Source of the DNA: a virus
Virus record (IMG/VR): IMGVR_UViG_3300021440_000003
Location: 8,402-72,401 of that record
Strand: one strand, 5' to 3'
Length of the DNA: 64,000 bases
The notes beneath the pieces were generated by a model, which ran no database searches, was not told the origin of the DNA, and worked only from the letters and a program-made list of their open reading frames with translations. Positions within the stretch are counted from its first letter, which is position 1, and each line of letters opens with the position of its first letter. The position numbers and the translations under genes were made by a program. Positions 45,882 through 64,000 of the stretch are shown here, piece by piece.

Positions 45882-45901
45882 TTCGTATTACTCCTCAGAA
45901 A

Positions 45902-46378: not shown

Positions 46379-46390
46379 GAAAAATACTCC

Positions 46391-47779: not shown

Positions 47780-47790
47780 TTCAACTCCAA

Positions 47791-48291: not shown

Positions 48292-49190
48292 GCCGTGCGC
48301 GTAACGGTCACGATGCCGTTCACGTCCGTGATGCTCTGCACCATATCACCCGCCAGTCGGGTATCCACCGAGACCACCAATGGAACAGCTGGGTCAAGGC
48401 CGTGGATTTCGTACATGCGGCGCAGGTAGTCGTGCTCCACCGGGGTGAGGCCAACACCATTGGCCAGCGTGGTGCCCACGCCCAGCATGGCATCCTTGGC
48501 CGTCGTCGTGCTGTTGAGCAGGTATTCCCACGTGGCTTGAGCAATCTGTTGCAGCGGGGGCGTGGACGAGTAGTCGCCAGAGGCAAGCCTGGTGGACACA
48601 GCCACATCAAGTTTGGCCAGCTCGACAGCCAGCTCGGTACGTACCGCAGCAGGCATGAGGTCGATGAGCGTGGATAGGTGGTCGAACTCGGCCATGTAGA
48701 TCCCCTGCCTTGTGTCAGCTTGTGCGGTGGTTTCCAGTGCAGCGAAATCTGTGGCAAGTGCCAGCTTGACGGCTGCCGCGATGTCAATGGCCGTCGGGCC
48801 TTGGTTAACGCCGCCAGCCGTAGCGATGGTGATGGCCTGCACCGGCTGCTGGCGATTGATCTGAACGGTGAAATTGCCCAGCGTGGGCACGAAGGCATCA
48901 GCCGCGCCACCATCGACGAGCAGCACACCACCCGTCACGTTGAGGGTGTGGTCAGCTTCTTGAGGACGGATGCGCCATCCGTTCATCAAGTAGCAGTAAT
49001 ACGGGATGTACGTCCCAGCCGTAGCGTCGATGGGGTCACCACCGATGATGCTGAAGGCTGGGAGGTACTTGCTGTTGTCAGCAGTGGAATGCCAGCGAAC
49101 CCAATCGCTCCACAGGTCTTGAACCGAGAGGCTCGTCGTCCCTGTGGTGAGCGTAATCAGCCGGGTTTGGCCGTCGAATTGGGTTGCCAT
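48288..49190 (-). CDS. putative virion structural protein
   Basis: Thr/Ala-rich; N-terminal domain resembles that of 49203-50588. Confidence 0.6.
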   Translation of the reverse strand: MATQFDGQTRLITLTTGTTSLSVQDLWSDWVRWHSTADNSKYLPAFSIIGGDPIDATAGTYIPYYCYLMNGWRIRPQEADHTLNVTGGVLLVDGGAADAFVPTLGNFTVQINRQQPVQAITIATAGGVNQGPTAIDIAAAVKLALATDFAALETTAQADTRQGIYMAEFDHLSTLIDLMPAAVRTELAVELAKLDVAVSTRLASGDYSSTPPLQQIAQATWEYLLNSTTTAKDAMLGVGTTLANGVGLTPVEHDYLRRMYEIHGLDPAVPLVVSVDTRLAGDMVQSITDVNGIVTVTRTA

Positions 49191-49202
49191 GCAAAAAGCC
49201 TT

Positions 49203-50588: not shown

Positions 50589-50609
50589 GACATGAGCCTT
50601 TCAAGTTGG

Positions 50610-53240
50610 TTAAGCGAATACGCGGTCTACAGTTTGTGCCACAGGGATTGTGGCGGCGGTTGTCGTGAGTTGGTAGTTCCTTATGTAATAAGGTACGTAT
50701 CCGCTCAAGAAAATTCCAATGTCAATCGGTTGGGTCGTCGTGTAGCCGTAGGTGTAGCTCGACGACGGCACGCTGTCCCCGGTGTCAAGCACCGTGGTCG
50801 TGCCCGCTTGGTACACCACCACGTCTGACCCCGGCTGCACACCAGTAACCGTCAAGCCCACCGTGTCAAGCGGGTACAGCGCGGCATTTTGCAGGGCAAG
50901 TGTCGTGGTGCCGTTTACCACCATTGTGGTAATGACGTTGCTGGTGCTGGCAATGGTGCAAGTGATGCGGAACCGGAACTTCAAGCCTGTGGTCGGGCTG
51001 ATGCCAGTCTCGGCAGCCAGGTTGGCGTTGCTCAGGGTCTTGAACGTGCCCGAGAAGCCAGCACCCTTGTCCATGTCGTACTGGATGGTGTGGTTGTTGG
51101 GCACGTTCGTGCCCGTGGTAGCGAACGACGTTGCACCGTTCCAGCCCAGCATGAAGTACGGCATCGTCCAGGTGATCTGGTCGCCCACGGACTGCATCAC
51201 GATGGAGCCGGTGCTCGTGAACTTCGGCGTGCCGCTGTCCACGGTGTACGTGCCCGACGTGGATGTGGACTTCTCGGTGAAGACAAGGGCTACCCGCGTC
51301 GTGGTGTCGCTGGTAAAGCTGTCCCAGAAGTGCATACCGTCAACGTGCGTGTAGGACGTAGGTACAGAACCGCTGTTCTGCCGGTTGCCGCGCACAGTGC
51401 TGTTGTACCAGTTCGGGCCTTGCGTCAAGGTGGCGTCGGTGTTGTAGCAGTTCTGGAACCTGATGCTCTGCGTGGTATTCGTGCTCGACGCCAAGCCGAT
51501 GCGCAGGTTGGTTAGCCAGTTGCGCTGGAACCGGATGTTCTTGTTCAGGCCGCCATCCGCGAACAGGTAGCCGGAACGGGCGTTCGCCACGCTGCCCCCA
51601 TCCAGAGGAGATGCAGATGAGCCAAGCCCCGTCACCAGCAGATCGGAGCAGGTGTTCATATACACCCAACCGCCCAACGGATGCACGTTGGCCACCCCCG
51701 GCCAAGTTGCCACATTGGTCAGGATGCCAGCTCGGCAGTTAGCCATCAGCTCGACCGCCTGCGTAGAAACGGTCGTGTTGGTGGTCGTCGCCTTCGGGTT
51801 GTCGGCGTAGTACACATTCGTCACAGACCAGTTCGAACAAGCCGACATGATGAGGCGCTTGCCCACCAGGTACAGGTTGGTCACGGTGATGGAGTCGCAG
51901 GTGTTGATGAACACCGGCCCGGCCAGCGCGGTAGCGTCTTGCGCGAACATGCCCTTCACGTTGTCCAGAGTCCACCCACCGTACAAGTTCACGAAGTAGA
52001 TCGCATAGCCTGCGGTGCTGATCTGCTGGGCGCGAACGCCAGTCAAGCGCTTGGCGGTGCCACCAGTCAGGCACTGCTGGAACACAATGGCGTTGGAGGC
52101 ATACGAGGTGGCTTGGTTGGACAAGCCGACCATCACCCCGTCGATGTCTGGAGGTGTCGAGGGCTCACCAAGCACGAACTGCTCGCAGGTGTGCATGTCC
52201 CGGATATACACCGAGTACGCCTGCTGGATGTTCATGTACCAGCAACCGGACACGCGCCGAATGTCCACAGCGCCGGACGAGTTCGTGGCAAGCTCATAGC
52301 GGGTGCCCATCGTCAAGCTGGGGGTGGTGTTGACTGCGTACCCGACTACGCCATTGGTGCTCGACGTGACGATGTTGGGCAAGCGGATTTTGCACCCTGC
52401 GGCGGGCAGGTCCCCGGCGTTCGCGCTGTTCGTGTCGAGGCCGAACGTCAGCAGGCCAGTCGAGTTCACCCAGCAAAAGCGGGAGCGGGAGTCCGTGCCG
52501 AGGTTCGCTGCGAGAAACATCTGACCGGCATTCGGCCAGTGATCGTACACACCAGAGCCGGGGGCCGTCTCCACTTCGACGCCAGGGTAACCCATCGTCT
52601 GCAAGGACGCGCCCTGCACGAAGGCCGGAAGCTGGACGGTCTGCCCACGCACACCACTAGTGGTAGCCAAGGTGCCCGCGTCGTCGATGATCGGGTAGAA
52701 CCAGTCACCGTTGATGGTCAGCTTGTTGAGCCGGTTGACCGTCAAGGTCATGGACTCCACGCCCACCACCTCGATGAAACTGCGAATGGGCGCGACGGCA
52801 ATCGTCACGACCTGGCCAGAAGACAAGGTGGCCGGGCCAGTCGTGAACGTTCCGCCCGTCATGCCGCGCAACTTGATCCAAGCACCCGTCGTCCAGACGC
52901 CGCCGGAAGCGGTAACCGCACCCCCATGGCGCTGCATGGCGATCAGGAACTCCGCCGTCACACCACCCTGCGTGATCGTCACGCCGGATGCAGGCACAGT
53001 ACCAGTGGCAGCAGACACGTACATCTGCCAGACGTTGTTGCCGTCAATGGTCATCGTCCCGCCAAGGGTCGATGACAGTGAGATGTTGGCGAAGGGGCCG
53101 GTCGTAACTGTGCAGTTCGGCCCGTACCTGGTATCACTATCAACAGTCAGTGAACCACCGTTAACATTGTACGTGTCAGAACCTGTCTTTCCAGACAAGG
53201 CGGTGAAGTTCTGCGCTGTAGTGATCGTGAATGTTGCCAT
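50610..53240 (-). CDS. large beta-rich virion appendage/adhesin (876 aa; beta-helix-like middle, Ig-like end)
   Basis: Very Thr/Gly/Asn-rich with short beta-repeat spacing; fold is inference. Confidence 0.6.
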   Translation of the reverse strand: MATFTITTAQNFTALSGKTGSDTYNVNGGSLTVDSDTRYGPNCTVTTGPFANISLSSTLGGTMTIDGNNVWQMYVSAATGTVPASGVTITQGGVTAEFLIAMQRHGGAVTASGGVWTTGAWIKLRGMTGGTFTTGPATLSSGQVVTIAVAPIRSFIEVVGVESMTLTVNRLNKLTINGDWFYPIIDDAGTLATTSGVRGQTVQLPAFVQGASLQTMGYPGVEVETAPGSGVYDHWPNAGQMFLAANLGTDSRSRFCWVNSTGLLTFGLDTNSANAGDLPAAGCKIRLPNIVTSSTNGVVGYAVNTTPSLTMGTRYELATNSSGAVDIRRVSGCWYMNIQQAYSVYIRDMHTCEQFVLGEPSTPPDIDGVMVGLSNQATSYASNAIVFQQCLTGGTAKRLTGVRAQQISTAGYAIYFVNLYGGWTLDNVKGMFAQDATALAGPVFINTCDSITVTNLYLVGKRLIMSACSNWSVTNVYYADNPKATTTNTTVSTQAVELMANCRAGILTNVATWPGVANVHPLGGWVYMNTCSDLLVTGLGSSASPLDGGSVANARSGYLFADGGLNKNIRFQRNWLTNLRIGLASSTNTTQSIRFQNCYNTDATLTQGPNWYNSTVRGNRQNSGSVPTSYTHVDGMHFWDSFTSDTTTRVALVFTEKSTSTSGTYTVDSGTPKFTSTGSIVMQSVGDQITWTMPYFMLGWNGATSFATTGTNVPNNHTIQYDMDKGAGFSGTFKTLSNANLAAETGISPTTGLKFRFRITCTIASTSNVITTMVVNGTTTLALQNAALYPLDTVGLTVTGVQPGSDVVVYQAGTTTVLDTGDSVPSSSYTYGYTTTQPIDIGIFLSGYVPYYIRNYQLTTTAATIPVAQTVDRVFA

Positions 53241-53243
53241 CGC

Positions 53244-53423
53244 TTACCCCAAAATAGGCCATTTGTTGAGCGGGCACTTGGAGTTCGTCAGCAACATCTT
53301 GCCTGACAAGGGACACTTGCACTTGCCGCACACCGGGCGACCAAACAGCATGACGCGTTCTGCACACCCGGTGCAGATGGATTCTCGACGTTCGCGCTGC
53401 TCTTTGGTCGTGATAATGCTCAT
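53244..53423 (-). CDS. small Cys-rich zinc-binding protein (59 aa; below ORF-track cutoff)
   Basis: R..IC..C...C..C.C....K......CP..KW; ATGA overlap with the HNH stop. Confidence 0.7.
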   Translation of the reverse strand: MSIITTKEQRERRESICTGCAERVMLFGRPVCGKCKCPLSGKMLLTNSKCPLNKWPILG

Positions 53424-53761
53424 TCCGTGGCCCTGCCAGCGATTAACTGTCGCATGCGCTCCGCATCCGACTCAACACTGGGATTGTATGCGCGAAAGTT
53501 GCCGCCGTGCCCGATGGCCAAGTGGCAGTTGATGAACTTCGTGCCTTCGCACAAAGTGATAAGATTTGTCAGTTCCAACTCCAGCTCAGGCTGCAAGTGA
53601 AACGGTTTCTTGTGATGCACTTCCACTTTGTCAGTACCACCGCACACGGCACACGCCGGGTACATGGCCAAGTGGCGCTTACGGGTGGTGGGCCATTTAG
53701 ACGATCGCTTGTTACCCAAGTCGGTCTTGCCCTGTGCTACGTCAATCAAGTGGGTCAGCAT
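53420..53761 (-). CDS. HNH endonuclease
   Basis: RS.KW...RK.HL, CAVCG, EVHH, NLITLC, CHL..GH. Confidence 0.88.
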   Translation of the reverse strand: MLTHLIDVAQGKTDLGNKRSSKWPTTRKRHLAMYPACAVCGGTDKVEVHHKKPFHLQPELELELTNLITLCEGTKFINCHLAIGHGGNFRAYNPSVESDAERMRQLIAGRATE

Positions 53762-53786
53762 CTTAGCCTCCGATGCAAGTCGTCCA

Positions 53787-53817
53787 GAAAAGGGGTCAGC
53801 CTTGTGAGCCGACCCCC
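53787..53817 (-). terminator. intrinsic terminator
   Basis: GGGGGTCGGC-loop-GCTGACCCCT then TTTC on the - strand. Confidence 0.65.
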
Positions 53818-53827
53818 TTTCTCAGGC

Positions 53828-54682
53828 TCAGTCAGCCAAGCCCATGCGACCACGCATTGCAGCGCGGAAGCTGTGACCAATCACGGCGCAGTTGATGTTC
53901 TGGACTTCAACTTTGGTGAGGTAGGTGTTGCCAGCAGCGGCGACATCCGAAGCCAGAGCGGCGACGGCGGCGTTGGCAGTGGCAGCAGAGGTTCCAGCGG
54001 TGGTTGCAGCGGCCTGAGCAGCAGCAGCGTTAGCCAGAGCGGTCTGAGCCGTAGCAGCAGCGGCTTCGGCAGTAGCTTGGGCAGCGGCAATGCCAGCGGC
54101 TTGGGTTTGCAGGGCCTCTACGGCAGCTTGCAGGCTGGAGATCTGGCTGGATTGGTTCGCGTCGTTGCCGGTCAGGTTGGCGACGGCGGTGTTCAGCGTG
54201 GCGATGCTGGCAGCGATGGCAGCGCAGTCACACGCACCGGCTTGACCAGCGTCAATAGCAGCTTGAATCGTCACCAGAGACTGGGCCATGTTGTCCACTT
54301 GGGACTGCACTTGGGCGATCTGGGCAGCGTTGGCGGAGTCGCCGTCGATGCGGTTCTGGGTCTCGGCAGCGAGAGCAGCCTGCACACCAGCAACGGTAGC
54401 AGCCAGGTCAGCAACAGCGGTCGAACCTTCGAGGCTCGTCACGCGGCCAGCCAGAGCGGTCAGCTGGGCCACGATGGCCTGGGCAGAAGCAGCGTCACCG
54501 GCAGTGTTGGCGGACAGCAAGCTGTTCAGGGTGTTGATCTGGGCTTGAACAGCGGCGATGTCAACGCCTTCAAGGGCCAGAACGGCGTTGATTTTTTCAT
54601 TGACCGCGAGACCAACTTCGTCACCGAAGGTGGTAGCGATACACTGAATCAAGACGGTCAAGTCGTCGTTATAGGCAGCCAT
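53828..54682 (-). CDS. Ala-rich long coiled-coil protein, putative fibre shaft
   Basis: Heptad repeats (L..L..RV..LE); AAGGA RBS; highly-expressed codon bias. Confidence 0.7.
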   Translation of the reverse strand: MAAYNDDLTVLIQCIATTFGDEVGLAVNEKINAVLALEGVDIAAVQAQINTLNSLLSANTAGDAASAQAIVAQLTALAGRVTSLEGSTAVADLAATVAGVQAALAAETQNRIDGDSANAAQIAQVQSQVDNMAQSLVTIQAAIDAGQAGACDCAAIAASIATLNTAVANLTGNDANQSSQISSLQAAVEALQTQAAGIAAAQATAEAAAATAQTALANAAAAQAAATTAGTSAATANAAVAALASDVAAAGNTYLTKVEVQNINCAVIGHSFRAAMRGRMGLAD

Positions 54683-54714
54683 GGAAATTTCCTTTGCAAA
54701 AGATTTTCCACCAC

Positions 54715-54891
54715 TTACGCGGGTGGGTTAGCGTCACCAGTGCAAGCCGTACCGTCGAGCACGGCTTGCAGTTGTTGAATCCGTGCCACCTGCGCCGCCA
54801 CCTCAGCTTCAATCATGCAGCGCAGGATGTCGCCTATCTGAGCACCCACATCCGCAAACGCACAGTTGAGCTTTTCCTCAAGTTCGTTCAT
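54715..54891 (-). CDS. small helical protein (MNELEEKLNCAFADVG..., 58 aa)
   Basis: ATG at 54891 after GGA; fills the gap between flanking genes. Confidence 0.55.
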   Translation of the reverse strand: MNELEEKLNCAFADVGAQIGDILRCMIEAEVAAQVARIQQLQAVLDGTACTGDANPPA

Positions 54892-54906
54892 TTAAAGTCC
54901 AGTGCT

Positions 54907-55296
54907 TCAGAGGTAGATGGCGAAGTCGCTCAAGTGTACCTTGAAAGTATCGTTGGTCGAACTGACATCTTCACCAAGATCAAAGACAAGCAGGGTCTTG
55001 TAGTCCGAGTAAATCTGGCCGTATCGGGCACGGATGGTCGCCCCTTTCCAAGCCGCCATACCGGAAAACTGAAGGACTGCGAACTCCCCGTCCGTTCCGA
55101 CCACTGGGCCGGCGATCTGCACACCCCCGGCCCGGTACCCCTGGGCCTTGATCTCGTTGACGGTGCTGTACTTGGCCGTCGTGATAGGCAAGGGCTCGCG
55201 GAACAAGGCCAGGTAGTACGTACCGTGCTTCCAGTCCCCGGCCAGCATCGCCTTGCGGGCTGGCGTGACCCACTTAGCGCTGCTCGTCATCGTCAT
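54907..55296 (-). CDS. putative virion structural protein following the portal
   Basis: YLALF, NE....GY.AGG, F....W...TI.AR...IY, FD.G motifs. Confidence 0.6.
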   Translation of the reverse strand: MTMTSSAKWVTPARKAMLAGDWKHGTYYLALFREPLPITTAKYSTVNEIKAQGYRAGGVQIAGPVVGTDGEFAVLQFSGMAAWKGATIRARYGQIYSDYKTLLVFDLGEDVSSTNDTFKVHLSDFAIYL

Positions 55297-57043
55297 GCTC
55301 CATCACAATAGATGAGAGTCGGCCGTCCTCGTCCCGTGTGACCTTCAAGGTCTTCGGGCCGCGTTCCTTGAGCAGGGTCAGCTTGACCTCGCTGGGGGCC
55401 ACGCTCACGTTCACGGGCTGGCGCGACTGGCTGGCCACCGCATTTTGCATGGCCCAAGCCAGATCGGACACGGACTTCGTGGTGTTGTCCGTCGTCTGCT
55501 TGGCATGAGCCAGCGCGTCCTGCGCGAGCGAGTGGCTGTTGTGCAGCATCGCCGTCAAGTTGGGATCGACCTCCGCCTTCGCCGGGCCTTTGGGCTGCTG
55601 CGGGGTACTCTGGCCGTCGCGCATCGTGCTTGTCTGGCTGTTCGGGTTTTGCTGCGGGGCGGCTTGGGCTGTTTTGAACATGGTGCCGGACAAGGGTTTG
55701 AACCCTGCCGGGGGCAAGTTTCCGGTCAGCTTGATACAAGCCTCCTCATCCGTAATCAAGCCCAGAGACAGCTGCTCCAAAATCCGAGACTGCTCCATGC
55801 TGCGGTACGCTTCGAGCTCGCTTTGGGGGCGCATGTCAAGGTCGGCGTAGCGGAACTCCACATACACGTCCTGCCCGAACAAGCGCACAGCCTGCGTCAA
55901 GGCGCGGCTCAACAGGGTGTTGAGCATAGTGCGCACCATCTCCGCGTTCTTCAGGAACAGCATGGTGTCCACGCTGGCGGTCGTACCGCTGCCGTTGCCA
56001 CGACCAAGCACGGCCGGAAGCGTCTTCGCGCCTGCTTGCAGCTTGGAGTTAATCATGTCCTGCACAGCCTGCATGGTGTTGCCGGGGTCGGTACCACCGT
56101 TCTCACTCTTAAGGTAGCTGTACTCCACCGTGTCGAAGGAGATCAAGGCATCCTCGGGGTTCAAGCCGTTGATGGTGCTCTCCAAGCCGGAAATCAAGTC
56201 CGACATGAACGAGTTGATCTTGTCCGGGTCGTTCAAGATCTCAGGGGGCGCACTCTGGCGCACGCGCTCCTCGATGATGCTGGCCACCAGTCGGGGGTGG
56301 ATGGCACGCTTCATGACGCGGCGCAAGTCGTTCAGGAAGGCGCTGTCGGCAAGCACAGCCTGCACGGCCGACTCCAGCGGGCTGTCCGAATACGGCGTCA
56401 GCAAGCTCTGGTCCTGGTTGAAGATGAACACAGTCGGGATGTCAAGGTCGATCTCTTGGCCTCCCACGACCTGCACAGGTCTCACGCCCTCGTCGTCCTC
56501 GTAATACCGGATGGCTGGCGTGTGCACGGGCACCAACCGGGTGGGCATGCGGGTCTTGTCGAGCACCAGCTCCAAGCTGGCGCTGCCGTACAGCAGAAGC
56601 TCCTTGCCAAGCGAGGCGGACAGCTCGGGCAGCGACGAAAAGCTGTTGTAGCCGAGGTTGGGGTCGCCCACGAAGGTGATGCGGCGCAAAATCTCGTTGG
56701 CAATCTGCGTGCTTTCCGGGCTCACGATGCCGTCCGTCGTACGGGCCACCACCGTGAAACGCTCCGGGATGCCGATACGCAGATATGCGTTCATAGTGGC
56801 AGACAAATCCGGGCTTGCGGCTGCCAAATCACGGATAACCTGCTTGGTTGTCTGGCCAAGCCGCATCTCCAGGATGTCGGACTGGGCAAGTCGGCGATCA
56901 GGCTTGGCTAGGGCGCTGGTCTGCTTGGTGATCTGCGTCTTGTAGCCGGGCACGCTCGCCTGCTTGGGCTTTACCTTCGCAGGGGGCAGAGCAGGCAGCT
57001 TGGCTGCTGCCCAGATACCGCTGATTTTGTCTAAAATGGCCAT
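55274..57043 (-). CDS. portal protein with C-terminal extension
   Basis: Follows the large terminase; ELLLYG...ELV, LP.VLG, LSLGLIT.EEA. Confidence 0.85.
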   Translation of the reverse strand: MAILDKISGIWAAAKLPALPPAKVKPKQASVPGYKTQITKQTSALAKPDRRLAQSDILEMRLGQTTKQVIRDLAAASPDLSATMNAYLRIGIPERFTVVARTTDGIVSPESTQIANEILRRITFVGDPNLGYNSFSSLPELSASLGKELLLYGSASLELVLDKTRMPTRLVPVHTPAIRYYEDDEGVRPVQVVGGQEIDLDIPTVFIFNQDQSLLTPYSDSPLESAVQAVLADSAFLNDLRRVMKRAIHPRLVASIIEERVRQSAPPEILNDPDKINSFMSDLISGLESTINGLNPEDALISFDTVEYSYLKSENGGTDPGNTMQAVQDMINSKLQAGAKTLPAVLGRGNGSGTTASVDTMLFLKNAEMVRTMLNTLLSRALTQAVRLFGQDVYVEFRYADLDMRPQSELEAYRSMEQSRILEQLSLGLITDEEACIKLTGNLPPAGFKPLSGTMFKTAQAAPQQNPNSQTSTMRDGQSTPQQPKGPAKAEVDPNLTAMLHNSHSLAQDALAHAKQTTDNTTKSVSDLAWAMQNAVASQSRQPVNVSVAPSEVKLTLLKERGPKTLKVTRDEDGRLSSIVMEHDDDEQR

Positions 57044-57067
57044 GGATTACGTCCTTTTGGGCACATT

Positions 57068-58304
57068 GTGACATACTCCACCCCCTTTGGGGGCGGGGCT
57101 TCATGCTTCGTTGGTGACAGCGCGAACGGATGGCTTGCGCCCCCGCTTGCGACTTACATCGCCTCCACATGCAGAAGCGACTAGCCCAGCCGCCATCATT
57201 CGTTTTGCCTCTTCCCGGACGTTCACTGCCGCATTCACGTCGCGGTCGTGGTGCGTGCCGCATGAGTGGCACGTCCAAGAGCGAACATCTAGTGGCATGT
57301 CCGGTTTTTTGTGAGACACGTACTGCACAGCTTGCTGGACGGGAAAAACCGATTTACCTCGATGTACCCCTTACCAGCTCGTGCAGCCTTGTACTTTAGG
57401 AATGCTGAAAACATACCCCAGCCAGCATCACCAATCGACTTTGCCAGCTTGCGGTTTTTCATCATTCCACGCACATTCAAGTCCTCCACGGCGACAACTT
57501 GGTTTTCGTTGACGATTCGTGTTGACAGCTTGTGCAAGTAATCCTTACGCTGGTTGCTTACCTTGTTGTGGCACTTGGCAACCGACAGTTTTGCCTTATC
57601 CCTATTCTTAGATCCTTTGACTTTACGGGAAAGTTTTTGTTGCTTACGCTTCAGGTTTTTGTGCGCCTTCTGAAAAAATCGCTCACTGTCGAACTTCGAG
57701 CCGTCGCTGGTGACAGCAAAATGCTCCAGTCCAACGTCGATGCCAAGGACTTTACCGTCGTATGACACGTCTGGCGCGTCTGCTCCATCCTCTGTGAGAA
57801 TGGAGATGTGATACTCGCCAGCGGCGTTCTTTGAGACGGTGCACGTTTTAATCACGCCAACAATCTCGCGGTGAATAACAGCCTTTACATGGCCGATTTT
57901 TGGGAGTTGCACTTTGCACCCGTCAACTACCTTTACGCCTTGCGGATAGCTCGCAGACTGCTTCCCGTGTTTGCTCTTAAATTTTGGGTACTTTGTGCGT
58001 CGCTCGAAAAAGTTTACGAAAGCGCGGGACAGGTGCATGCAGGCCGATTGAAGCGTTTGTGCGTAGGGTTCGTTTAACCACTCGAATTCTTTTTTGAGTT
58101 GCGGGAGTCTTGCCGTCATCTCAAACTGTCCAAGCCCCTTGCCAGTCTCTTTGTAAACCTCTTGTGTCTTTGCAAGGTTGTTATTCCACACCCAGCGTGC
58201 GCAGCCAAATGCCTGAGCAAGCATATTTGCCTGCTTTTTGTTCGGGTACAAACGTACTTTGGTTGCGGTGAGCATTATCGTATTGTAATTGATTTTTACC
58301 TTAA
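57068..58304 (-). mobile_element. tnpB-only IS200/IS605-derived cassette between terL and portal (left boundary uncertain)
   Basis: Right end GAAG + hairpin CCCCGCCCCC/GGGGGTGGAG + terminal TCAC (57068-57071); AT-richer than the flanks; no left hairpin visible. Confidence 0.75.
57101..58275 (-). pseudogene. tnpB: TnpB, frameshifted within the Zn finger at A AAA AAC (57304-57310)
   Basis: KVRLYP, FGCARWVWN, GIDVG, VEDLNV; the -1 frame supplies WTC..CG..HDRDVNAA. Confidence 0.88.
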
Positions 58305-58309
58305 GTCAA
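58282..58309 (-). promoter_or_regulatory. sigma70-like promoter TTGACT-N16-TACAAT for tnpB, probably leaderless
   Basis: Near-consensus boxes; only 6 nt between the -10 box and the ATG; -35 box overlaps the terL stop codon. Confidence 0.55.
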
Positions 58310-59985
58310 TCCATCTTGTTCCTGAAGCTCTTGACCAGTGACATGCCCCGGTGCAAGGCTCCTCCTTGAGCAGTCGCACGCAAGCGGCAAGCCAGCATCA
58401 GGTAGAGCAAGGCGAAGTGCATGTGGTCCTCTCCCTTGCTGCTTTTCACCCACTGGTAGTTGATCTCATTGTTGCGGTCGAACACCTGCTGACGGCGCAT
58501 ATCGGTGTAGTGCGCGTTGTACGCCTCTGACCTCGGCCCCTGATGGATGACAAGTGATCGGTCCTTGAACATCTGCATGATCGAGTCCAAGGCCACCGTC
58601 CGATTGACCTTGACCATGCGCAAGTTCATGCGCCCGGTCGTGTGGTCCGCGTCTCGCTGCGCCACGGTGTACATATCGGTGCTTTTCGTGGTCACGAACC
58701 CGGCTCCGTACGCGTTTTTGTCGTAGTCGGTGATGCGACGCACCAAGTCTGTCTCCGGCTGGGCGTCGTGAACGGAAATGAGCACCCGGTATTTCGCGCA
58801 CAGCTCGCGTCGGCGCTGCTCGAAGATGGCAAGTGGGATCTCCTCGCGGTGCACCACCAGCAACTTTCCGTCAAGCGTCATGCGGCCAATGCTCACGGTG
58901 CAAGTGATGTGGCCCATGTCGCACCCCATGTAGTGCACTTCCGAGCTGTTGAGGTCGCCCTCGTAAGCACAAGCGGCCACGTCGCTGGCGGAGATCTGGT
59001 CGTCGGACGTTTCGGCCTCGATGCCAAGCACCTGGTTGTGGAACTCAGCCTTCGTGTTGAACTCCGTGGACGAGCGCACGATGTAGTCGGGTGTCAGGAT
59101 GCCGTAAGCTGTCGCGGGGCTTACGTAATAGGTGGCCGCCTCGTGCTGGTCAAGGTGGTTTTCGATCACCCATTCAAGCCTGGAGCGGTCGAGTTGTGGG
59201 TCTTTTCCGCACTTTGGACAAGCCCAGTGCGCTTCCTGCCACCGAACGTCCTTCAGGTTGCTGCGTGTGATGTCCATGAGGCTGCCGCTGTAGCCTGGGA
59301 CCTGCATGTGGGTGTAATACTCGGGCAAGAACCGGTGGCCACAGCAGGCGCAAGTCGCAAAGTGGCGGTAGCGGCGGCTGGTCTCGGCTTCCTTGGAAAT
59401 CCCGACTCCGGCGATGGTTGGGGTCGAGAAGTTGCGAATCAGGCGGTGTTTGCTGGCCTGCAAGCGGGAGCGGAACTGGAGCAAGGTGTCCGGGTCGGAC
59501 CGGTCGATCTCGTCGTTGACCAGCATGTCGGCGGAAATGGACAAGGCTGCTGTTTCAGACCGTGTTCCACGGATAAACAGGAAGTTGGCACCCAGTTGTT
59601 TGAGCTCGGAGTTGTTGACTTCGGGGTTTATCAAGCGGCGCAGCTCGGGGCTGCCCATGAGCAAGGGTGCCATCTTGGTCGTGGACAGCTTTACGGCGTC
59701 CGTGGCGCTTGGCATCGTGTAGATCACGTTCAGAGGACGCTGCGTGGCAAGTGCGGCAAGGGCGTGGCACATGGAGACCGTGGACAAGCCGATCTGGGCG
59801 CACTTGACCACGTTGACGACCCGGGCGGGGTTGTCGATGATGTCGGCCTGGAAGCTGTATTTCCCGCTCAGATCGATGAGCTCGCCTTCCAAGTAGATGT
59901 TCTTTTGCACCCACTTGGACAAGGTGGAGAGGGTGTAGGTGCCAGCAACGGCGTCCCGGACGCGCTGGAGGTGGTCAGCGAACAT
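58306..59985 (-). CDS. terL: terminase large subunit (lambda GpA-like)
   Basis: KCAQIGLS Walker A variant, DEID, STPT, CACC/CPKC Zn motifs, GCDMG and DH..FA nuclease motifs. Confidence 0.92.
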   Translation of the reverse strand: MFADHLQRVRDAVAGTYTLSTLSKWVQKNIYLEGELIDLSGKYSFQADIIDNPARVVNVVKCAQIGLSTVSMCHALAALATQRPLNVIYTMPSATDAVKLSTTKMAPLLMGSPELRRLINPEVNNSELKQLGANFLFIRGTRSETAALSISADMLVNDEIDRSDPDTLLQFRSRLQASKHRLIRNFSTPTIAGVGISKEAETSRRYRHFATCACCGHRFLPEYYTHMQVPGYSGSLMDITRSNLKDVRWQEAHWACPKCGKDPQLDRSRLEWVIENHLDQHEAATYYVSPATAYGILTPDYIVRSSTEFNTKAEFHNQVLGIEAETSDDQISASDVAACAYEGDLNSSEVHYMGCDMGHITCTVSIGRMTLDGKLLVVHREEIPLAIFEQRRRELCAKYRVLISVHDAQPETDLVRRITDYDKNAYGAGFVTTKSTDMYTVAQRDADHTTGRMNLRMVKVNRTVALDSIMQMFKDRSLVIHQGPRSEAYNAHYTDMRRQQVFDRNNEINYQWVKSSKGEDHMHFALLYLMLACRLRATAQGGALHRGMSLVKSFRNKMD

Positions 59986-60349
59986 CTTGGGGGAATTTTT
60001 TGGTGTAGAGCTCGAAGAACTTGTCCTGCATGGGTTGGGGCATGGCTTTCAGGGTCTCGATCAGGATGAGCTCGATGTCTTTGATGCGCTGCGAGCTGTA
60101 GAGCTCGGTCTGCAACTTCGTGAGCTGGGTCAAGATCGTGGTCATGCTGTTCATGATCTGCGCGATCTGGTTGGGAGGCACGTCGTCGCGGTAGGGCAAG
60201 GTGTCTCGCAGGGCAAGGGCGGCGTTGTAGTTGTCCAACAGCTCTGAGTGGATGTCCAAGGTCTCCGCTGTCACCGTGCGGAATATCGCGGCTTGCTGTT
60301 GGGGCTCTTGTTGGGTGTCGCCGTGCAAGTCGAGGTTTTTAAGCGCCAT
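59975..60349 (-). CDS. probable terminase small subunit
   Basis: Helical 124-aa ORF overlapping the terL start. Confidence 0.6.
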   Translation of the reverse strand: MALKNLDLHGDTQQEPQQQAAIFRTVTAETLDIHSELLDNYNAALALRDTLPYRDDVPPNQIAQIMNSMTTILTQLTKLQTELYSSQRIKDIELILIETLKAMPQPMQDKFFELYTKKFPQDVR

Positions 60350-60629
60350 TTCGTGCCTTCGCCTTGTACCGGAAGATCGTGCGTGTAGAGCAATGGGCGA
60401 TGCGGGCGGCCTCCAGGGTAGGGGTCGTGGAGGCAAGCTGGGTGCGGAAGGCCCTGCGGGCTGCGTTCAGCTCGGATTTCTTGGGTTTTTTGGGGCGCGG
60501 AGGGCGCGGGAGTATCTGGTAGAGGTACCCGATGGGGATGTTGTAGCGTGCAGATAGCTCTTTGGAGGTGATCTCAAAGCGTAAATAAGCTGCACGTTCT
60601 TCGATGGGGATGCGCTGGATTGCACTCAT
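60339..60629 (-). CDS. basic protein with two HTH-like segments
   Basis: ITSKELSARYNI...YL and TLEAARIAHCSTRTIFRY. Confidence 0.65.
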   Translation of the reverse strand: MSAIQRIPIEERAAYLRFEITSKELSARYNIPIGYLYQILPRPPRPKKPKKSELNAARRAFRTQLASTTPTLEAARIAHCSTRTIFRYKAKARNGA

Positions 60630-60649
60630 TCGCGGATTATGAATCGAAT

Positions 60650-60668
60650 TGTCGCTAAATTAGTGACA
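60650..60668. promoter_or_regulatory. operator-like palindrome TGTCGCTAA-A-TTAGTGACA in the divergent intergenic region
   Basis: 8/9 inverted repeat about 20 nt upstream of the HTH gene start. Confidence 0.45.
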
Positions 60669-60935
60669 TTTTGAGTGTAAATGTGCGAAAAGTTTTAAAA
60701 AATTTTGTATATGGCGGAGGTGGGAGAGGCGGCGCATCGCATTATACCAAAAATAAACCCTATACGTCAACCACATATACATGCTATGCACTGTTACAAA
60801 CTCTGACACATTGTGGTAACCAAACAACATATTTTCATGTATAGTTCAGCACATGGCAAATTTCAACACCTCCCCACAGTGCATGGCTCTGCCATAGCTA
60901 TGCACACTCATGCCCACAGGGGCAAAGGATCAACC

Positions 60936-61376
60936 ATGACAAACCAAGTCGTCACATTCAACGCACTTACCCGCGTCACGGGCAAGGCACCGGCCAAAGT
61001 GGCTCACGCTATCGCTCAAGGCGCAGACGCTGGCACGCTGCTCGCCATTGGCAAGCATCGCAGGGCTATCATCGGGAGCATAGCCCTCGCAGGGGAGCAG
61101 GCCACAATCCGCGAACTGTCCCACGGGAACATTCGCCCAGCGTGCGCTGCCCTTGTCGAGCTGTCAGGCAAGGCTGTCACCCTCATGGAGATTGACGGAA
61201 AAGCCCCATACTCTGAATTCCTGCGAATGGGCGCGGCACTGGCCCAGTTCCAGCAGTTGACCAAGGCCGGGAAACCTACCAGCGCGGCCAGAGCCCTTGC
61301 CAAGTTCACACAATGGCGTGACCAAGCCTCTGCGCTCCGCGCTGAACGTATGGCCGGTAAAGCGTTGCCCGCATAA
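60936..61376 (+). CDS. first early gene, hypothetical protein
   Basis: AAGGA RBS then ATG at 60936; preceded by hairpin 60879-60905. Confidence 0.7.
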   Translation: MTNQVVTFNALTRVTGKAPAKVAHAIAQGADAGTLLAIGKHRRAIIGSIALAGEQATIRELSHGNIRPACAALVELSGKAVTLMEIDGKAPYSEFLRMGAALAQFQQLTKAGKPTSAARALAKFTQWRDQASALRAERMAGKALPA

Positions 61377-61379
61377 CCC

Positions 61380-62215
61380 CATAGCCCCCTCGGGGGTTTA
61401 CATAAGGGACAAACCCCTTATGTAAGCCTCTAACCCGTTCGCTGATCGCAGCGATATGTTAAACCGGGTTTGTTCATTGTCGCATTTTGCGCGAGCCCCA
61501 CGGGGCCTGCGCATGGCGGAGCCATGCCCTACGGGGTCACGGTATCCAATGCACGATGACACAAACGTGACAACGGCTTTATCCGGGGTATTCTTTAAAA
61601 ATTTATAGACAGCACGGCCATTGTACGTGTCCACTATTCGGACATAGGGTTAACCGTGCGAGTCGCCAAGGCGAGAACCAACATCGCATAATCTACGCGT
61701 TTAATACTATCAACCGTTGATAGCATCAGTATATTGTGCATGGTGTTGATGTGTGTGACGTAATGTCACGTAAATGCACCCACGAAGCAAAGGCGACTAT
61801 AAAGAACGGCATTTATGCCAAGAACGTGTAACCTAGCAGGACTCGGAGCACGTAACCCCTAGATTGTCTGGAAAATGGCATATTGGCGACAATATGCAGC
61901 ATCATCATGCGGTTTCCTGACTCAATAAGCGGTATGAAACAAGCGGCCTACAGGCGTGAGGGATTATCAATACCCGCAAGGTTCATTCTTGCGGCATACG
62001 ATAAAGCCACCCCACAATGTGCCACACCACTTCATACCCTACTATTGAGCTTTTAAACCAGAGTACGACAATTCGCAAGGTTTAATAAAGAACCCGATTA
62101 CAAGGGTATAAAGCATCCGTGATAGTACGGAATTAGACAACGATGGGGCTTAACCCGCCCCTGATAGCGCGGTTGAGAAACCGCCTAAGTGCATAGCCGT
62201 GTGCTTAGGCTGTTT
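61380..62215 (+). ncRNA. candidate large highly structured non-coding RNA (~830 nt)
   Basis: No credible gene; more than 20 local helices, nested multibranch and long-range pairings, G-U pairs and GNRA/UNCG loops favouring the + strand. Confidence 0.7.
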
Positions 62216-62231
62216 TTCATAGGAGAAAATC

Positions 62232-62543
62232 ATGCGAGATCACATCTACATCGGCTCGGCCCCATCGGACGAGCTGTGCGCCCAACTTGGATTCCCTGAC
62301 TTCGAGCGGCTCCAGTCCATCGAACTCACACAATTCTTGCGTATGTTGCGGGAACGCTTCCCTCTGCCTGACTTCCGTGTCAAGCGGGAGAGCCACGACT
62401 TCGGCTCTTACCGCGAAGTCGTCGCTTACTTCGATGACGAGGACGAAGATCAAGCGGCACAAGCCTACGAAGCTGAGTGCTACTTCGACAAGTGGGACGA
62501 CCAAGCTCGTGAGTCCACCCATGTTGCAAGTCAACACCAATAA
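62232..62543 (+). CDS. conserved-type acidic phage early protein
   Basis: AGGAG RBS; IG.AP.DE.CAQ.G and HDFGSY.EV motifs. Confidence 0.75.
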   Translation: MRDHIYIGSAPSDELCAQLGFPDFERLQSIELTQFLRMLRERFPLPDFRVKRESHDFGSYREVVAYFDDEDEDQAAQAYEAECYFDKWDDQARESTHVASQHQ

Positions 62544-62865
62544 CCAACTCCAGTACAAGTTCAAGCCTCTGGGCTTGTACGTGAGCCAGGCCGACACACA
62601 GACGGTCATCTACAGCCTAAAACCGGCCTACAAGCAGCACAAGATGCCTTGCAGCCGCTATGCCCTCTCCACGGCCTATGGCAGGGCCGTTCTCACTGAA
62701 CACCTCACCATGAAAGGACTCACCCCCATGAGCATCGTTATGTCCCTCTGCTTCGCCTCCATGTTCATCATGGCCGGGGAAGCGTCCGTTGCCTCTGTCA
62801 TTGTCGCTGCCGTCACCGTTGTGCTTGGCGTGGCCGTCCAGGTCATCGAGAGTCGGACGCATTGA
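62521..62865 (+). CDS. hypothetical protein with C-terminal TM segments; possible internal start at 62728
   Basis: ATG at 62521; internal AAGGA RBS before ATG 62728. Confidence 0.5.
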   Translation: MLQVNTNNQLQYKFKPLGLYVSQADTQTVIYSLKPAYKQHKMPCSRYALSTAYGRAVLTEHLTMKGLTPMSIVMSLCFASMFIMAGEASVASVIVAAVTVVLGVAVQVIESRTH

Positions 62866-62884
62866 CAAGGGTTGGGGCTGGGGC

Positions 62885-63181
62885 CTTGTCCTTGGCAAGC
62901 CGCTAGGCATTGTCCTTGGCCTTGTCCTTGGCCTTGGCCTTGGCATTGTCCTTGGCCTTGGCAAGCCGCTAGGCATTGTCCTTGGCCTTGGCAAGCCGCT
63001 AGGCATTGTCCTTGGCCTTGGCAAGCCGCTAGGCATTGTCCTTGGCATTGTCCTTGGCAAGCCGCTAGGCATTGTCCTTGGCATTGTCCTTGGCAAGCCG
63101 CTAGGCATGGTTCCTGCCCTTGGCAAGCCGCTAGGCCTTGTCTTGTTCTTGTCCTTGTCCTTGGCAAGCCGCTAGGCCTTG
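62885..63181. repeat. eight copies of CTTGGCAAGCCGCTAGGC separated by hexamer-built linkers
   Basis: Copies start at 62891, 62957, 62987, 63017, 63053, 63089, 63119 and 63160. Confidence 0.95.
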
Positions 63182-63210
63182 CCTATTCCCACAACCCACA
63201 ACCCAACCCT

Positions 63211-63408
63211 ATGACACCCACACAAACACTCGCCAAGGCCCTGGAAACGGCTCCTACAAAGGCGCTGGCCCTGCAAGCGGCTCAGGAGCTGCGCCGACTC
63301 GAAAAAGAGCGTATGGAGCTGCTCCATGCCCTTGCGGATAGCGTGACCGCAACCCTGAATGGAGTTCAGGCCATGCACCGGCTCATGAGCCGGTATCTTG
63401 ACGCTTGA
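63211..63408 (+). CDS. small coiled-coil hypothetical protein
   Basis: MTPTQTLAKALE...AAQELRRLE. Confidence 0.55.
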   Translation: MTPTQTLAKALETAPTKALALQAAQELRRLEKERMELLHALADSVTATLNGVQAMHRLMSRYLDA

Positions 63409-63571
63409 AGGTTGGGAGATGGGGTCCTTGTCTCGGTCCTTGTCAACACCCCAGATTAACGGCCCTGCAAGCCTCTAAACCCTCTCCAAGCACCCTACCC
63501 CTACCCAACCTTAAAAATCGCTTCCAACCCTGTTCTGGCAAGTCCTAGACCCCAACCCCAAGAGAACCACC

Positions 63572-63795
63572 ATGAAAACTACGGCGTATTCGTAATCGAC
63601 CCCGAAACCTCAGTTCGCTACCGCTTGAAAGCCTTTGCCAACTTGGACAACGCGGTCAAACTTGCACAAAAATCTAATGGGCAAGTCGTTGACCTGCTCA
63701 ACAACACGCTTTATCAGTCAGTAGGCTACCTACTCGGCCCCAAATTCAAGCGAAGCAAGCGTATAGACAAGCTCAGTGCGCAGATTTTCGCATAA
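63572..63795 (+). pseudogene. small gene with an apparent 1-A deletion right after the start codon
   Basis: ATG AAA ACT reaches a stop at codon 8; one extra A gives a 74-aa ORF MKNYGVFVIDPETSVRYRLKAFANLDNAVKLA... Confidence 0.5.
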
Positions 63796-64000
63796 GTTGG
63801 CACAAAAATTATTGACAGGCAGTCAAAAGTACGCGTAACGACCAAAACTAGGTAGCTATTCCGTACGCTAGGCAAGCCTTCAGACCAAGCCAAGCAAGCC
63901 CAAACCAAGTCAAACCTCTACTGTCGAGACCCAAAAAACGCGCAGATGCAAGCTCATTTTGGCATCTTCCGAAAATTAGCCTTGCCAAAAGGACGCTGTT

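What the first reader, a model, noticed from the sequence alone, without database searches (positions are those of the whole stretch)
61380..62215. Candidate large ornate phage ncRNA (~830 nt) in the early region
Seen: in an otherwise tightly packed genome, 830 nt has no credible gene and is almost fully structured. Local stems: 61393-61430 (16 bp, 2 G-U), TCGCTG/CAGCGA 61439-61454, GCATGGC/GCCATGC 61511-61527, CCC-TACG-GGG (UNCG loop), CTATCAA/TTGATAG 61707-61723, GCATATTG-GCGA-CAATATGC 61878-61897 and GCGGTT-GAGA-AACCGC 62169-62184 (GNRA loops), CCGCAAG/CTTGCGG 61974-61994. Closing helices of multibranch domains: 61469-80 with 61553-65; GCACGG 61612 with CCGTGC 61654; GCGTTTA 61697 with TAAATGC 61771 (encloses three hairpins); AGTCGCC 61661 with GGCGACT 61792; CTCAATA/TATTGAG plus GGTATGAA/TTCATACC (61921-38 with 62031-49). 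Long-range or pseudoknot candidates: GGCTTTATC 61575 with GATAAAGCC 62000; TTCTTTA 61591 with TAAAGAA 62086; ATTGTC 61863 with GACAAT 62067. Known: GOLLD and ROOL are phage-associated ornate RNAs of this size range. Inference: this is a divergent member of such a class or a new class, made very early in infection. I do not recognise it as a known family.
Basis: partly seen in the sequence, partly recalled or inferred. Interest (0 to 1): 0.9.

Follow-up and report, generated by a model that had tools for sequence, protein, structure and literature searches.

The report
New large folded phage RNA family
The gene-free 830 bases after the first rightward gene of this uncultured freshwater phage encode a long, intricately folded non-coding RNA of a family in no catalogue, found in environmental RNA libraries, whose job is still unknown.

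Summary
Window 61380-62215 folds far better than shuffles on the + strand (z -8.3; - strand -4.3) and matches no Rfam family. The window is most of a 72.4-kb siphophage record. The stretch follows the first gene (gene1) of the rightward replication arm and ends in a terminator-like hairpin that abuts the next gene's ribosome site.

Ten distinct contigs encode a gene1 relative. All carry the same ~230-nt 5' module: a long hairpin, a small hairpin, and a three-way junction with twin C-YACG-G hairpins. On 7 sequences 92% of pair cells pair, against 35-45% in slid controls. 51 of 81 pairs change on both sides, against 6-12.

The remaining ~600 nt is lineage-specific. In the window's lineage 20 pairs show compensatory changes, against 0-3 in controls.

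Contigs from four freshwater RNA libraries lie on the stretch.

My reading is a new class of large structured phage RNA, closest in kind to GOLLD and ROOL but unrelated to them. Its function is inferred only: a stable trans-acting RNA (about 45%) or a cis-acting leader gating the replication arm (about 30%).

The scan's notes hold no look-alike on other DNA.

The parts
60936..61376 (+). gene1. A 146-aa helical protein of unknown function and the first gene of the rightward arm. It is the constant upstream neighbour of the RNA.
   Evidence: ORF. No PHROG or Pfam match. AF2 pLDDT 92.4, with no fold match. Relatives form 67 clusters at 90% identity and 18 at 50%. All 10 distinct contigs with a relative carry the 5' module downstream.
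61384..61431 (+). P0/P1. A short hairpin directly after the gene1 stop, whose 3' arm can instead extend the long P1 hairpin (17 pairs, 61392-61408 with 61415-61431).
   Evidence: Helix 1. 15 of its 17 pairs change on both sides among 7 sequences. P0, the P0-versus-P1 alternative and P1 in all ten loci are my reading of the sequences. Single-sequence folds of eight of the ten show P1.
61439..61454 (+). P2 hairpin (TCGCTG-ATCG-CAGCGA). The loop region carries GATC in 6 of 10 loci.
   Evidence: Helix 5: 3 of 4 pairs change on both sides. The GATC count is my reading of the sequences.
61458..61574 (+). Three-way junction. Long stem P3 (61458-61486 with 61548-61574) closes twin hairpins P4 (61491-61517) and P5 (61518-61547). 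Each is capped by a C-(C/U)ACG-G loop.
   Evidence: Helices 6-11: 10 of 18, 4 of 6 and 7 of 12 pairs change on both sides. The same architecture appears in single-sequence folds of 8 loci. Coordinates.
61567..61601 (+). Conserved single-stranded linker TC(A/T)TTAAAAA. It is overlapped by a sigma-70-like site (GTGACA-16-TATTCT) at the homologous place in groups A and B.
   Evidence: The motif is in 9 of 10 loci; L023 has TCATTCAAAA. Promoter-like sites (window; L007). No conserved pairing partner was found.
61612..61858 (+). Central multi-branch domain, specific to the window's lineage (group A). It comprises GCACGG/CCGTGC, AGTCGCC/GGCGACT enclosing three hairpins, GGCA/TGCC and ACGTGT.../...GCACGT.
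   Evidence: Helices 13-23. Helices 13, 14, 15, 17, 18, 19 and 21 carry compensatory changes. Covariance model R2 of 61606-61812 finds nothing significant in groups B and C.
61878..61897 (+). Hairpin GCATATTG-GCGA-CAATATGC.
   Evidence: Helix 25. Three pairs change on both sides. A fourth becomes U-G in L005/L006, which pairs only on the + strand.
61911..62059 (+). 3' multi-branch domain (GGTTT/AAACC, GACTCAATAAG/CTATTGAGC, GGTATGAA/TTCATACC, inner helices, CCGCAAGG/TCTTGCGG). It is nearly invariant in group A.
   Evidence: Helices 27-33: two pairs of helix 33 vary on one side only, one cell of helix 28 is unpaired, no pair changes on both sides, so the fold is predicted but not tested. Identity to L005 is 0.90-0.95 here, against 0.72-0.81 in gene1.
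62117..62130 (+). Hairpin CCGTG-ATAG-TACGG. It may be the counterpart of the GGATAGAGT-loop hairpin of groups B and C.
   Evidence: Helix 36, with one compensatory pair. L007, L010 and L016 have stems CAATC/GATTG, CTAC/GTAG and ATTGC/GCAAT around a GGATAGAGT loop. The homology to group A is my inference.
62145..62184 (+). Two small hairpins (GGGGC...GCCCC and GCGGTT-GAGA-AACCGC). AGCGCGGT can alternatively pair with ACCCGTT at 61433-61439 and close the whole RNA.
   Evidence: Helices 37 and 4. They are invariant or vary on one side only, so they remain untested.
62183..62219 (+). Terminator-like hairpin (12 pairs) and T-run. It abuts the gene2 ribosome-binding site, with no room for a promoter.
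   Evidence: A like site ends the region in L007 (5451-5478). Groups C end in GTGGCTTTTTGTGT, which the scan tool did not call.
62232..62543 (+). gene2. A 103-aa acidic protein of unknown function, downstream of the terminator. It is not tied to the RNA.
   Evidence: L004 has a gene2 relative with no ORF-free gap before it and no R1 match. L006 has an extra 181-aa ORF between terminator and gene2.

Best explanation
The stretch is the body of a long, highly structured non-coding RNA read on the + strand. It belongs to a family not in Rfam and is so far seen only in a small clade of uncultured freshwater siphophages.

The RNA is modular:
- A ~230-nt 5' module follows the gene1 stop codon. It has a long hairpin, a small hairpin, a three-way junction with twin C-YACG-G hairpins, and a single-stranded TC(A/T)TTAAAAA. 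It is kept in every relative.
- A ~600-nt body of multi-branch domains is lineage-specific.
- A terminator-like hairpin with a T-run ends it just before gene2.

Shown:
- The fold of the 5' module and of the central domain, by covariation.
- The + strand, by G-U pairs, gene orientation and terminator orientation.
- Its presence in RNA libraries.

Inferred: it is transcribed rightward, with or just after gene1. It ends at the terminator and accumulates as a stable RNA. The long P1 duplex may be a processing or stabilising site.

My commitment on function is inference only. About 45%: it acts in trans as a stable structured RNA, a scaffold or decoy like GOLLD and ROOL, perhaps together with the gene1 protein. 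About 30%: it acts in cis as a leader (first rival).
For: Fold beyond chance: z -8.31 on + against -4.25 on -.

5' module:
- Model R1 was built from the 3 group-A sequences. It finds 7 of 10 loci at E <= 1.3e-9. It finds the other 3 (group C) at the expected place and strand at E 0.0016-0.017.
- On the 7-sequence alignment 92.2% of 529 cells pair, against 35.3-44.9% when partners are slid.
- 51 of 81 pairs change on both sides, against 6-12 in slid controls.
- 0 of 500 shuffles reach any of the five measures.
- With all 10 sequences: 90.1% against 38-44%, and 69 against 18-26 pairs.

Full length, on a MAFFT alignment of 3 sequences not fitted to any structure:
- 263 pairs, 98.8% paired.
- 20 pairs change on both sides, against 0-3 in slid controls.

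Strand:
- 70 G-U cells against 6 A-C cells.
- The terminator T-run and both flanking genes lie on +.

Not coding: 14 of 17 small ORFs are broken in homologues.

Not catalogued: Rfam.

RNA libraries, all four laid: X8 has a 713-nt contig on 61444-62138. X10 covers 61786-62138. X11 covers 61712-61927 and 61948-62172. X12 covers 61615-61932.

Context:
- The rightward arm holds helicase, primase and DNA polymerase.
- The terminator abuts the gene2 ribosome site.
- A terminator-like site also ends the region in L007.
Against: - The family is small: 10 contigs in three lineages.
- The alignments were fitted to the model's structure and lean towards it.
- The structure tested was derived from the same three sequences, and two of them are 94% identical.
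- The 3' third (61900-62215) is almost invariant, so its fold is only predicted.
- Models of the group-A body find nothing in groups B or C. 'One 830-nt RNA family' is therefore only true of the 5' module.
- The RNA-library evidence is from assembled contigs. These cannot give strand, ends or level, and DNA carry-over in the libraries is not excluded.
- Nothing bears directly on function. The gene1 fold gave no RNA-binding hint.
- A 57-aa ORF (61883-62056) stays open in all three group-A sequences.
Confidence: 0.7

Rival explanations
1. Cis-acting leader. The RNA is a giant regulatory leader of the replication arm. Its fold decides whether RNA polymerase stops at the terminator at 62183-62219 (attenuation). 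Alternatively, it modifies the polymerase so that it reads through, in the manner of the HK022 put RNAs or of nut sites with gene1 as the protein partner. The abundant RNA would then be the terminated by-product.
For: - It sits between the first promoter-proximal gene and a terminator-like hairpin.
- That hairpin abuts the gene2 ribosome site, so gene2 must be reached by read-through.
- A terminator-like end is kept in L007 and a T-run in group C.
- Alternative pairings exist at both ends. P0 competes with the P1 extension next to the gene1 stop codon (my reading). ACCCGTT/AGCGCGGT competes with the GCGGTT hairpin next to the terminator.
- The comparison with lambda cro-nutR-tR1 and HK022 put is recalled knowledge, not a tool result.
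Against: - At 830-1060 nt with some 35 helices, it is far larger than any attenuator or put/nut element I know of (recalled).
- The alternative pairings near the terminator are invariant, so they are untested.
- The body is lineage-specific while the terminator logic is shared. That fits a cargo better than a switch.
- No ligand or tRNA-binding family matches.
Confidence: 0.3
2. Only the 5' module is a functional element: a 3'-UTR processing or stabilising structure for the gene1 message, such as an RNase III site. The following ~600 nt would be a fast-evolving spacer that folds well but has no role of its own.
For: - Only the 5' module is shared by all 10 loci.
- The body is not detectably related between group A and groups B and C.
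- P1 is a 17-pair duplex in the window, and I read about 21 pairs in the L007 fold.
Against: - The group-A central domain has compensatory changes in 7 helices.
- The 3' part is better conserved than either flanking gene: 0.90-0.95 against 0.72-0.87.
- Group B and group C bodies share a 150-nt region at E 2.4e-5 and a hairpin with a constant loop on covarying stems.
- The RNA-library contigs lie on the body and not on P0/P1.
Confidence: 0.1
3. A DNA-level element, such as a replication origin, a packaging site or an array of protein-binding palindromes, and not an RNA.
For: - The region is richer in A+T than its surroundings: GC 0.45-0.52 against about 0.6.
- It lies 1 kb from the terminase genes.
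- It lies 0.7 kb from a repeat array at 62885-63181 (note e1-6180047; repeats visible).
- The - strand also folds better than shuffles (z -4.25).
Against: - G-U pairs are kept on + where the - strand would have A-C mismatches: 70 against 6 cells.
- One pair of helix 25 is U-G in L005/L006.
- Long-range helices that close multi-branch domains covary, which DNA cruciforms do not need.
- The z-score is twice as strong on +.
- Contigs from RNA libraries lie on it.
Confidence: 0.03
4. It hides one or more small protein genes, chiefly the 57-aa ORF at 61883-62056 (+).
For: The ORF is open in the window, L005 and L006. Substitutions against L005 fall 3, 2 and 6 on codon positions 1, 2 and 3.
Against: - It starts with TTG. 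I saw no clear ribosome site before it (my reading).
- 4 of its first 8 residues differ in L005, while the RNA hairpin encoded there keeps all its pairs.
- A 1-nt indel changes its last residues and its stop.
- The rest is invariant, with no third-position drift, unlike gene1 and gene2 at 72-87% identity.
- 14 of the 17 ORFs are broken in homologues.
Confidence: 0.05

Closest known systems
GOLLD and ROOL RNAs (large 'ornate' RNAs of phages and prophages)
   Same: Both are phage-encoded, hundreds of nucleotides long, with many helices in multi-branch domains. Their function is unknown and expression is high in at least some cases. Passages of PMC12286853 read say many GOLLD members exceed 800 nt. 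They say ROOL env-120 is 659 nt. Both are encoded in phages and prophages. GOLLD expression rises during lysis. ROOL can be as abundant as 16S rRNA.
   Different: There is no match to either Rfam model, even at E <= 10. No tRNA genes are in the window, whereas those RNAs often lie near tRNA islands. This RNA is tied to one protein gene and to the head of the replication arm. Only its 5' quarter is conserved across relatives. Whether it forms multimeric cages as they do is untested.
HK022 put RNAs and lambda nut sites (cis-acting antitermination RNA elements); recalled, not from a call
   Same: It is promoter-proximal, downstream of the first early gene and upstream of a terminator that precedes the rest of an early operon. 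It has paired hairpins with constant loops.
   Different: Those elements span tens of nucleotides (recalled). This one spans 830-1060 nt with about 35 helices.
Other uncatalogued large phage RNAs noted by this scan (e1-5645226, e1-3418048)
   Same: They are gene-free, strongly folded stretches of uncultured viruses with covariation and no Rfam match. e1-5645226 also lies beside the strand switch of an aquatic phage.
   Different: No sequence likeness to this stretch is on record.

Membership tests
GOLLD / ROOL / OLE / HEARO / raiA and every other Rfam 15 family | A match to the family's covariance model at or above its gathering score | tested here: not met
   There are 0 matches in the 64-kb window at gathering. 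At E <= 10 on 61200-62400 only four hits appear, of 12.7-17.4 bits. They are freshwater-2, Retro_dr1, Mu-gpT-DE and RAGATH-32, with gathering scores of 41.8-49.9. Homologous loci give only one tRNA elsewhere and chance-level hits.
GOLLD / ROOL | Frequent neighbourhood of tRNA genes (typical, not strictly defining; PMC12286853 passages) | tested here: not met
   ARAGORN finds no tRNA in the window. One tRNA lies 1.5 kb downstream in L010 only.
GOLLD / ROOL | Homo-oligomeric RNA-only cage | not testable with these tools
   This needs cryo-EM or native gels of a transcript.
Structured non-coding RNA (general) | Base pairs kept through compensatory changes beyond controls | tested here: met
   51 of 81 pairs against 6-12 in slid controls, and 0 of 500 shuffles; 20 of 263 against 0-3; 69 of 81 against 18-26.
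Structured non-coding RNA (general) | A transcript exists | tested here: inconclusive
   Contigs from four RNA libraries lie on 61444-62172. Contigs give no strand or ends, and DNA carry-over is not excluded.
Intrinsic (factor-independent) terminator | A G+C-rich hairpin followed by a T-run on the transcribed strand | tested here: met
   62183-62210: 12 pairs, then TGTTTTTCAT. A like site occurs in L007. Function was not tested.
Self-splicing introns, RNase P RNA, tmRNA, 6S RNA | A match to the Rfam models, or ARAGORN for tmRNA | tested here: not met
   In addition, gene1 ends in a stop and gene2 has its own ribosome site.
RNase III processing site (P1) | A long, nearly perfect duplex of about two helical turns (recalled criterion) | tested here: inconclusive
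   P1 has 17 pairs in the window. I read about 21 in the L007 fold. No cleavage data exist.

The most novel reading that the evidence does not exclude
A new class of ornate phage RNA built from a constant 'handle' and an interchangeable 600-800-nt 'body'. The handle is the 5' three-way junction with twin YACG hairpins, possibly bound by the gene1 protein. The RNA would accumulate during infection and act in trans, for example as an RNA-protein scaffold, a decoy for a host factor or defence system, or a self-assembling particle. The swapping of bodies between lineages would reflect an arms race.
Probability: 0.3. Interest if true: 0.85.

Novelty: new variant of a known kind. Interest (0 to 1): 0.72.

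Why it matters
Very few large, intricately folded RNAs are known in bacteria and phages. In the cryo-EM work on three of these classes (PMC12286853, passages read), GOLLD, ROOL and OLE each turned out to form an ordered homo-oligomeric structure.

This one adds a class with three useful properties:
- A compact, well-supported 5' module, suitable for structure work.
- A fixed protein-gene partner, which suggests a testable RNA-protein pair.
- A position at the gate of the replication genes, which suggests a testable regulatory role.

It also shows that an element this large can be common in environmental RNA libraries and still absent from catalogues.

Tried and rejected
Searches and comparisons that found nothing:
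- blastn of 61300-62300 against 50,697 phage records gave no match.
- tblastn of gene1 against the same records gave no match. The terminase's best cultured relative is only 27% identical, so no cultured model phage exists.
- Rfam gave nothing.
- For the gene1 fold, Foldseek found no hit at E <= 0.001. VIA-align's best was Z 4.6. The PDB sequence profile found none. The Atlas had no usable hit. No function can be read from any of this.

Alignment attempts that failed:
- RNAalifold on plain MAFFT alignments of all 10 or of 7 5' modules recovered only 16 and 39 pairs. The alignments were not structure-accurate, so I used the covariance model instead.
- A pairwise L010/L016 alifold gave 27 pairs changed on both sides, on an alignment of 50% identity that I do not trust.
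- A four-sequence alignment of the region shared by groups B and C gave no consensus.

Extension of the family:
- Model R2 of the group-A central domain finds no significant match in groups B and C.
- nhmmer of group A finds only the 5' module in L007.
- The pattern ACGGG...CCYACGGGTT...TCWTTAAAAA hit only the five contigs already known in viral contigs.
- It hit three MAG contigs in genome contigs. R1 does not confirm these at the pattern's place, so I treat them as chance.
- Two 20-mers of the group-A body occur only in the two known contigs.
- The genome-contig scan with the gene1 profile found none.

Tests of function that gave nothing:
- No antisense match of 12 nt or more to the rest of the phage genome.
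- No conserved partner for the TC(A/T)TTAAAAA linker.

Points that I do not use as evidence:
- The listed contigs do not lie on gene1, gene2 or the terminase, and some bins have no depth.
- Contig depths (16.6 in X8 and 31.9 in X12 on the RNA) cannot rank genes.
- X8 and X10 contigs both stop at 62138, but no DNA run was laid for comparison, and strain variation just downstream could break contigs.
- Adapter-like loose ends occur at 61444 and 61932, but such ends also occur elsewhere in X8.

L008 and L009 contigs end at the same place, about 50 nt past the 5' module. Their last ~60 nt are identical and they come from one sample. I read this as an assembly-graph break and not as a genome end.

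Supplements of papers were not consulted. The reference lists of Rfam-derived motif papers may hold unnamed candidates that I could not see.
Full report
**What the window is.** The window is bases 8402-72401 of a 72,401-base virus record whose ends repeat 127 bases.
- It is a siphophage.
- On the - strand it has a tape-measure gene (32416-36660), a major head gene (44679-45881), a portal gene (55274-57043) and a large terminase gene (58306-59985).
- On the + strand, running over the record's ends, it has an ATPase, helicase, primase and DNA polymerase.
- The two arms diverge at 60630-60935.
- The target follows the first gene of the rightward arm (gene1, 60936-61376, 146 aa) and precedes gene2 (62232-62543).
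- The nearest cultured phage has a terminase only 27% identical. None has gene1.

**The observation.**
- The 836 bases hold only short ORFs.
- As RNA the + strand folds to -300.9 kcal/mol, against -242.8 +/- 7.0 for 20 dinucleotide-preserving shuffles (z -8.31). The - strand gives z -4.25.
- The 3' 603 bases alone give z -4.48.
- No Rfam family reaches its gathering score anywhere in the window.
- With permissive filters and E <= 10, four chance-level hits appear, of 12.7-17.4 bits.

**Relatives.** I searched with gene1, gene2 and profiles of gene1. These gave ten distinct contigs, counting the window. They fall into three lineages:
- Group A: window, L005, L006.
- Group B: L007, L008, L009, L023.
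- Group C: L010, L016, L031.

Many locus numbers are repeat fetches of the same contigs.

Each contig has an ORF-poor stretch after gene1. It is 0.85-1.1 kb long where the contig goes on far enough.

In group A the RNA stretch is 84-85% identical over about 810 bases. A sliding comparison with L005 shows three levels:
- The late genes are about 95% identical.
- gene1 is 72-81% identical, and the first half of the RNA 57-85%.
- The last third of the RNA is 90-95% identical, above both flanking genes.

**The 5' module.** Single-sequence folds of eight of the ten loci show one architecture. By my reading of the sequences, the other two (L006, L009) share it.
- A short hairpin (P0) lies right after the stop codon.
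- A long hairpin (P1) follows, then a small hairpin (P2).
- A long stem (P3) closes a three-way junction with two hairpins (P4, P5). Both are capped by C-(C/U)ACG-G.
- A single-stranded TC(A/T)TTAAAAA comes last.

A covariance model built only from the three group-A sequences (R1) gave these results:
- It finds the four group-B loci at E 1e-9 to 1e-14.
- With filters off, it finds the three group-C loci at the expected place and strand at E 0.0016-0.017.

On the seven-sequence alignment:
- 92.2% of 529 pair cells are standard pairs, against 35-45% when partners are slid by 1-3 columns.
- 51 of 81 pairs change on both sides, against 6-12 in slid controls.
- None of 500 shuffles reaches the observed values.

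With all ten sequences the figures are 90.1% against 38-44%, and 69 against 18-26 pairs. The three group-C rows alone pair at 85.4% against 38-43%.

These alignments were fitted to the model, which favours the structure. The gap to the slid controls on the same alignments is nevertheless large.

**The body in the window's lineage.** I used a plain MAFFT alignment of the three group-A sequences, which is not fitted to a structure. The RNAalifold consensus has 263 pairs.
- 98.8% of cells pair.
- 20 pairs change on both sides, against 0-3 in slid controls.

Compensatory changes support these elements:
- The 5' module.
- The central domain: GCACGG/CCGTGC, the hairpin inside it, AGTCGCC/GGCGACT and four helices within.
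- The hairpin at 61878-61897. There GCA...TGC becomes ATG...CAT, and one pair becomes U-G.
- The hairpin at 62117-62130.

Helices from 61899 to 62107, and those beyond 62145, never change on both sides and so carry no test. The structure was derived from these same sequences, and two of the three are 94% identical. This amounts to one good comparison and not many.

**Strand and coding.**
- Paired columns hold 70 G-U cells against 6 A-C cells.
- The terminator's T-run and both neighbours lie on +.
- Of 17 small ORFs, 14 are broken in L005 or L006.
- The 57-aa ORF at 61883-62056 stays open. However, 4 of its first 8 residues differ in L005 while the hairpin there keeps pairing, an indel changes its end, and the remainder is invariant.

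**How far the family reaches.**
- The group-A body is not found in groups B or C by nhmmer or by a covariance model of 61606-61812.
- Groups B and C share a 150-base region (E 2.4e-5).
- They also share a hairpin with a constant GGATAGAGT loop on covarying stems.
- A specific motif pattern finds only the known contigs among 2.9 million viral contigs.
- Its three hits in bacterial MAGs are not confirmed by R1.
- gene1 relatives form 67 clusters at 90% identity.
- They form only 18 at 50% identity among 1.84 billion representatives.

**Expression.**
- The stretch is held by 19 listed runs of 18 studies, all labelled freshwater or aquatic. Six are RNA libraries.
- I laid four RNA libraries on 44001-64000, and all four have contigs on the RNA. 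X8 has one contig of 713 bases on 61444-62138. X10 covers 61786-62138. X11 covers 61712-61927 and 61948-62172. X12 covers 61615-61932.
- The X8 contig bridges the junction between the 5' module and the body.
- The same libraries have contigs on the major head gene and on an unknown gene at 53828-54682.
- Contigs cannot show strand, ends or level, and DNA in the libraries is not excluded.

**Ends and signals.**
- A 12-pair hairpin with a T-run (62183-62210 plus tail) ends the stretch and runs into the gene2 ribosome site.
- L007 has a like site.
- Group C ends in GTGGCTTTTTGTGT, which the scan did not call.
- A sigma-70-like site lies at the homologous place in the window (GTGACA-16-TATTCT) and in L007 (GTGATA-16-TATCAT). 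It overlaps the conserved linker. Whether it is a promoter is open.

**What it is and how it may work.** The evidence shows a real, + strand, highly structured RNA of an uncatalogued family. It has a constant 5' module and a lineage-specific body, and it is present in RNA libraries.

Function is inferred only.
- I lean (about 45%) to a stable trans-acting RNA of the GOLLD/ROOL kind, possibly working with the gene1 protein. My reasons are its size, the selection on the body, and its presence in RNA libraries alongside late messages.
- The main rival (about 30%) is a cis-acting leader that gates read-through into the replication genes.
- DNA-level and coding readings are unlikely.

**Literature.**
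- PMC12286853: I read passages found with 'find' and the start of its abstract in a listing.
- I saw all other papers only in search listings.
- None of these three searches turned up a description of this RNA.
- The comparisons with lambda nut, HK022 put, P4 and P1 immunity RNAs and RNase III criteria are recalled.

Noticed in passing
window 62617-63408: Overlapping ORFs on both strands translate to short repeated peptide units, which betrays a DNA repeat array. Identity to L005 drops to 0.40-0.53 here.
   Followed up: no
window 2626-3471 (+), 4925-6127 (+), 57289-58275 (-): Three genes match PHROG 506 'transposase' (E 4e-29, 1e-117, 1e-108). One sits between the portal and terminase genes. 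That makes several copies of a TnpB-like element in one phage genome.
   Followed up: partly
window 53828-54682 (-): A 284-aa ORF with no PHROG and only a sub-threshold coiled-coil Pfam hit. Contigs from all four RNA libraries laid lie on it, as they do on the major head gene.
   Followed up: no
window 60700-60775; L005, L006, L007, L010 homologous places: The divergent intergenic region keeps AAAAAATTTT and TA(T/C)ACGTCA in all five sequences aligned (TATACGTCAA in four). The second holds the TTGACG of a strong - strand promoter-like site (TTGACG-18-TATAAT, 11 of 12).
   Followed up: partly
window 61384-61431 and homologues: The 3' arm of hairpin P0 can pair either with the bases just after the gene1 stop codon or with the bases after P1. 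This holds in at least groups A, B and L010. A ribosome stopping at gene1 would cover the first partner, so the fold may sense gene1 translation.
   Followed up: no
L006 5412-5957: One group-A relative has an extra 181-aa ORF between the RNA's terminator and gene2, so the RNA-gene2 junction is a site of gene insertion.
   Followed up: no
L007 4455-4505: The gene1 relative of L007 ends in a tandem 12-base repeat (four copies, giving a repeated Q-E-A-T) just before the RNA.
   Followed up: no
L010 7016-7101: A tRNA gene (63.8 bits) lies about 1.5 kb downstream of the RNA region in one group-C phage. There is none in the window.
   Followed up: no
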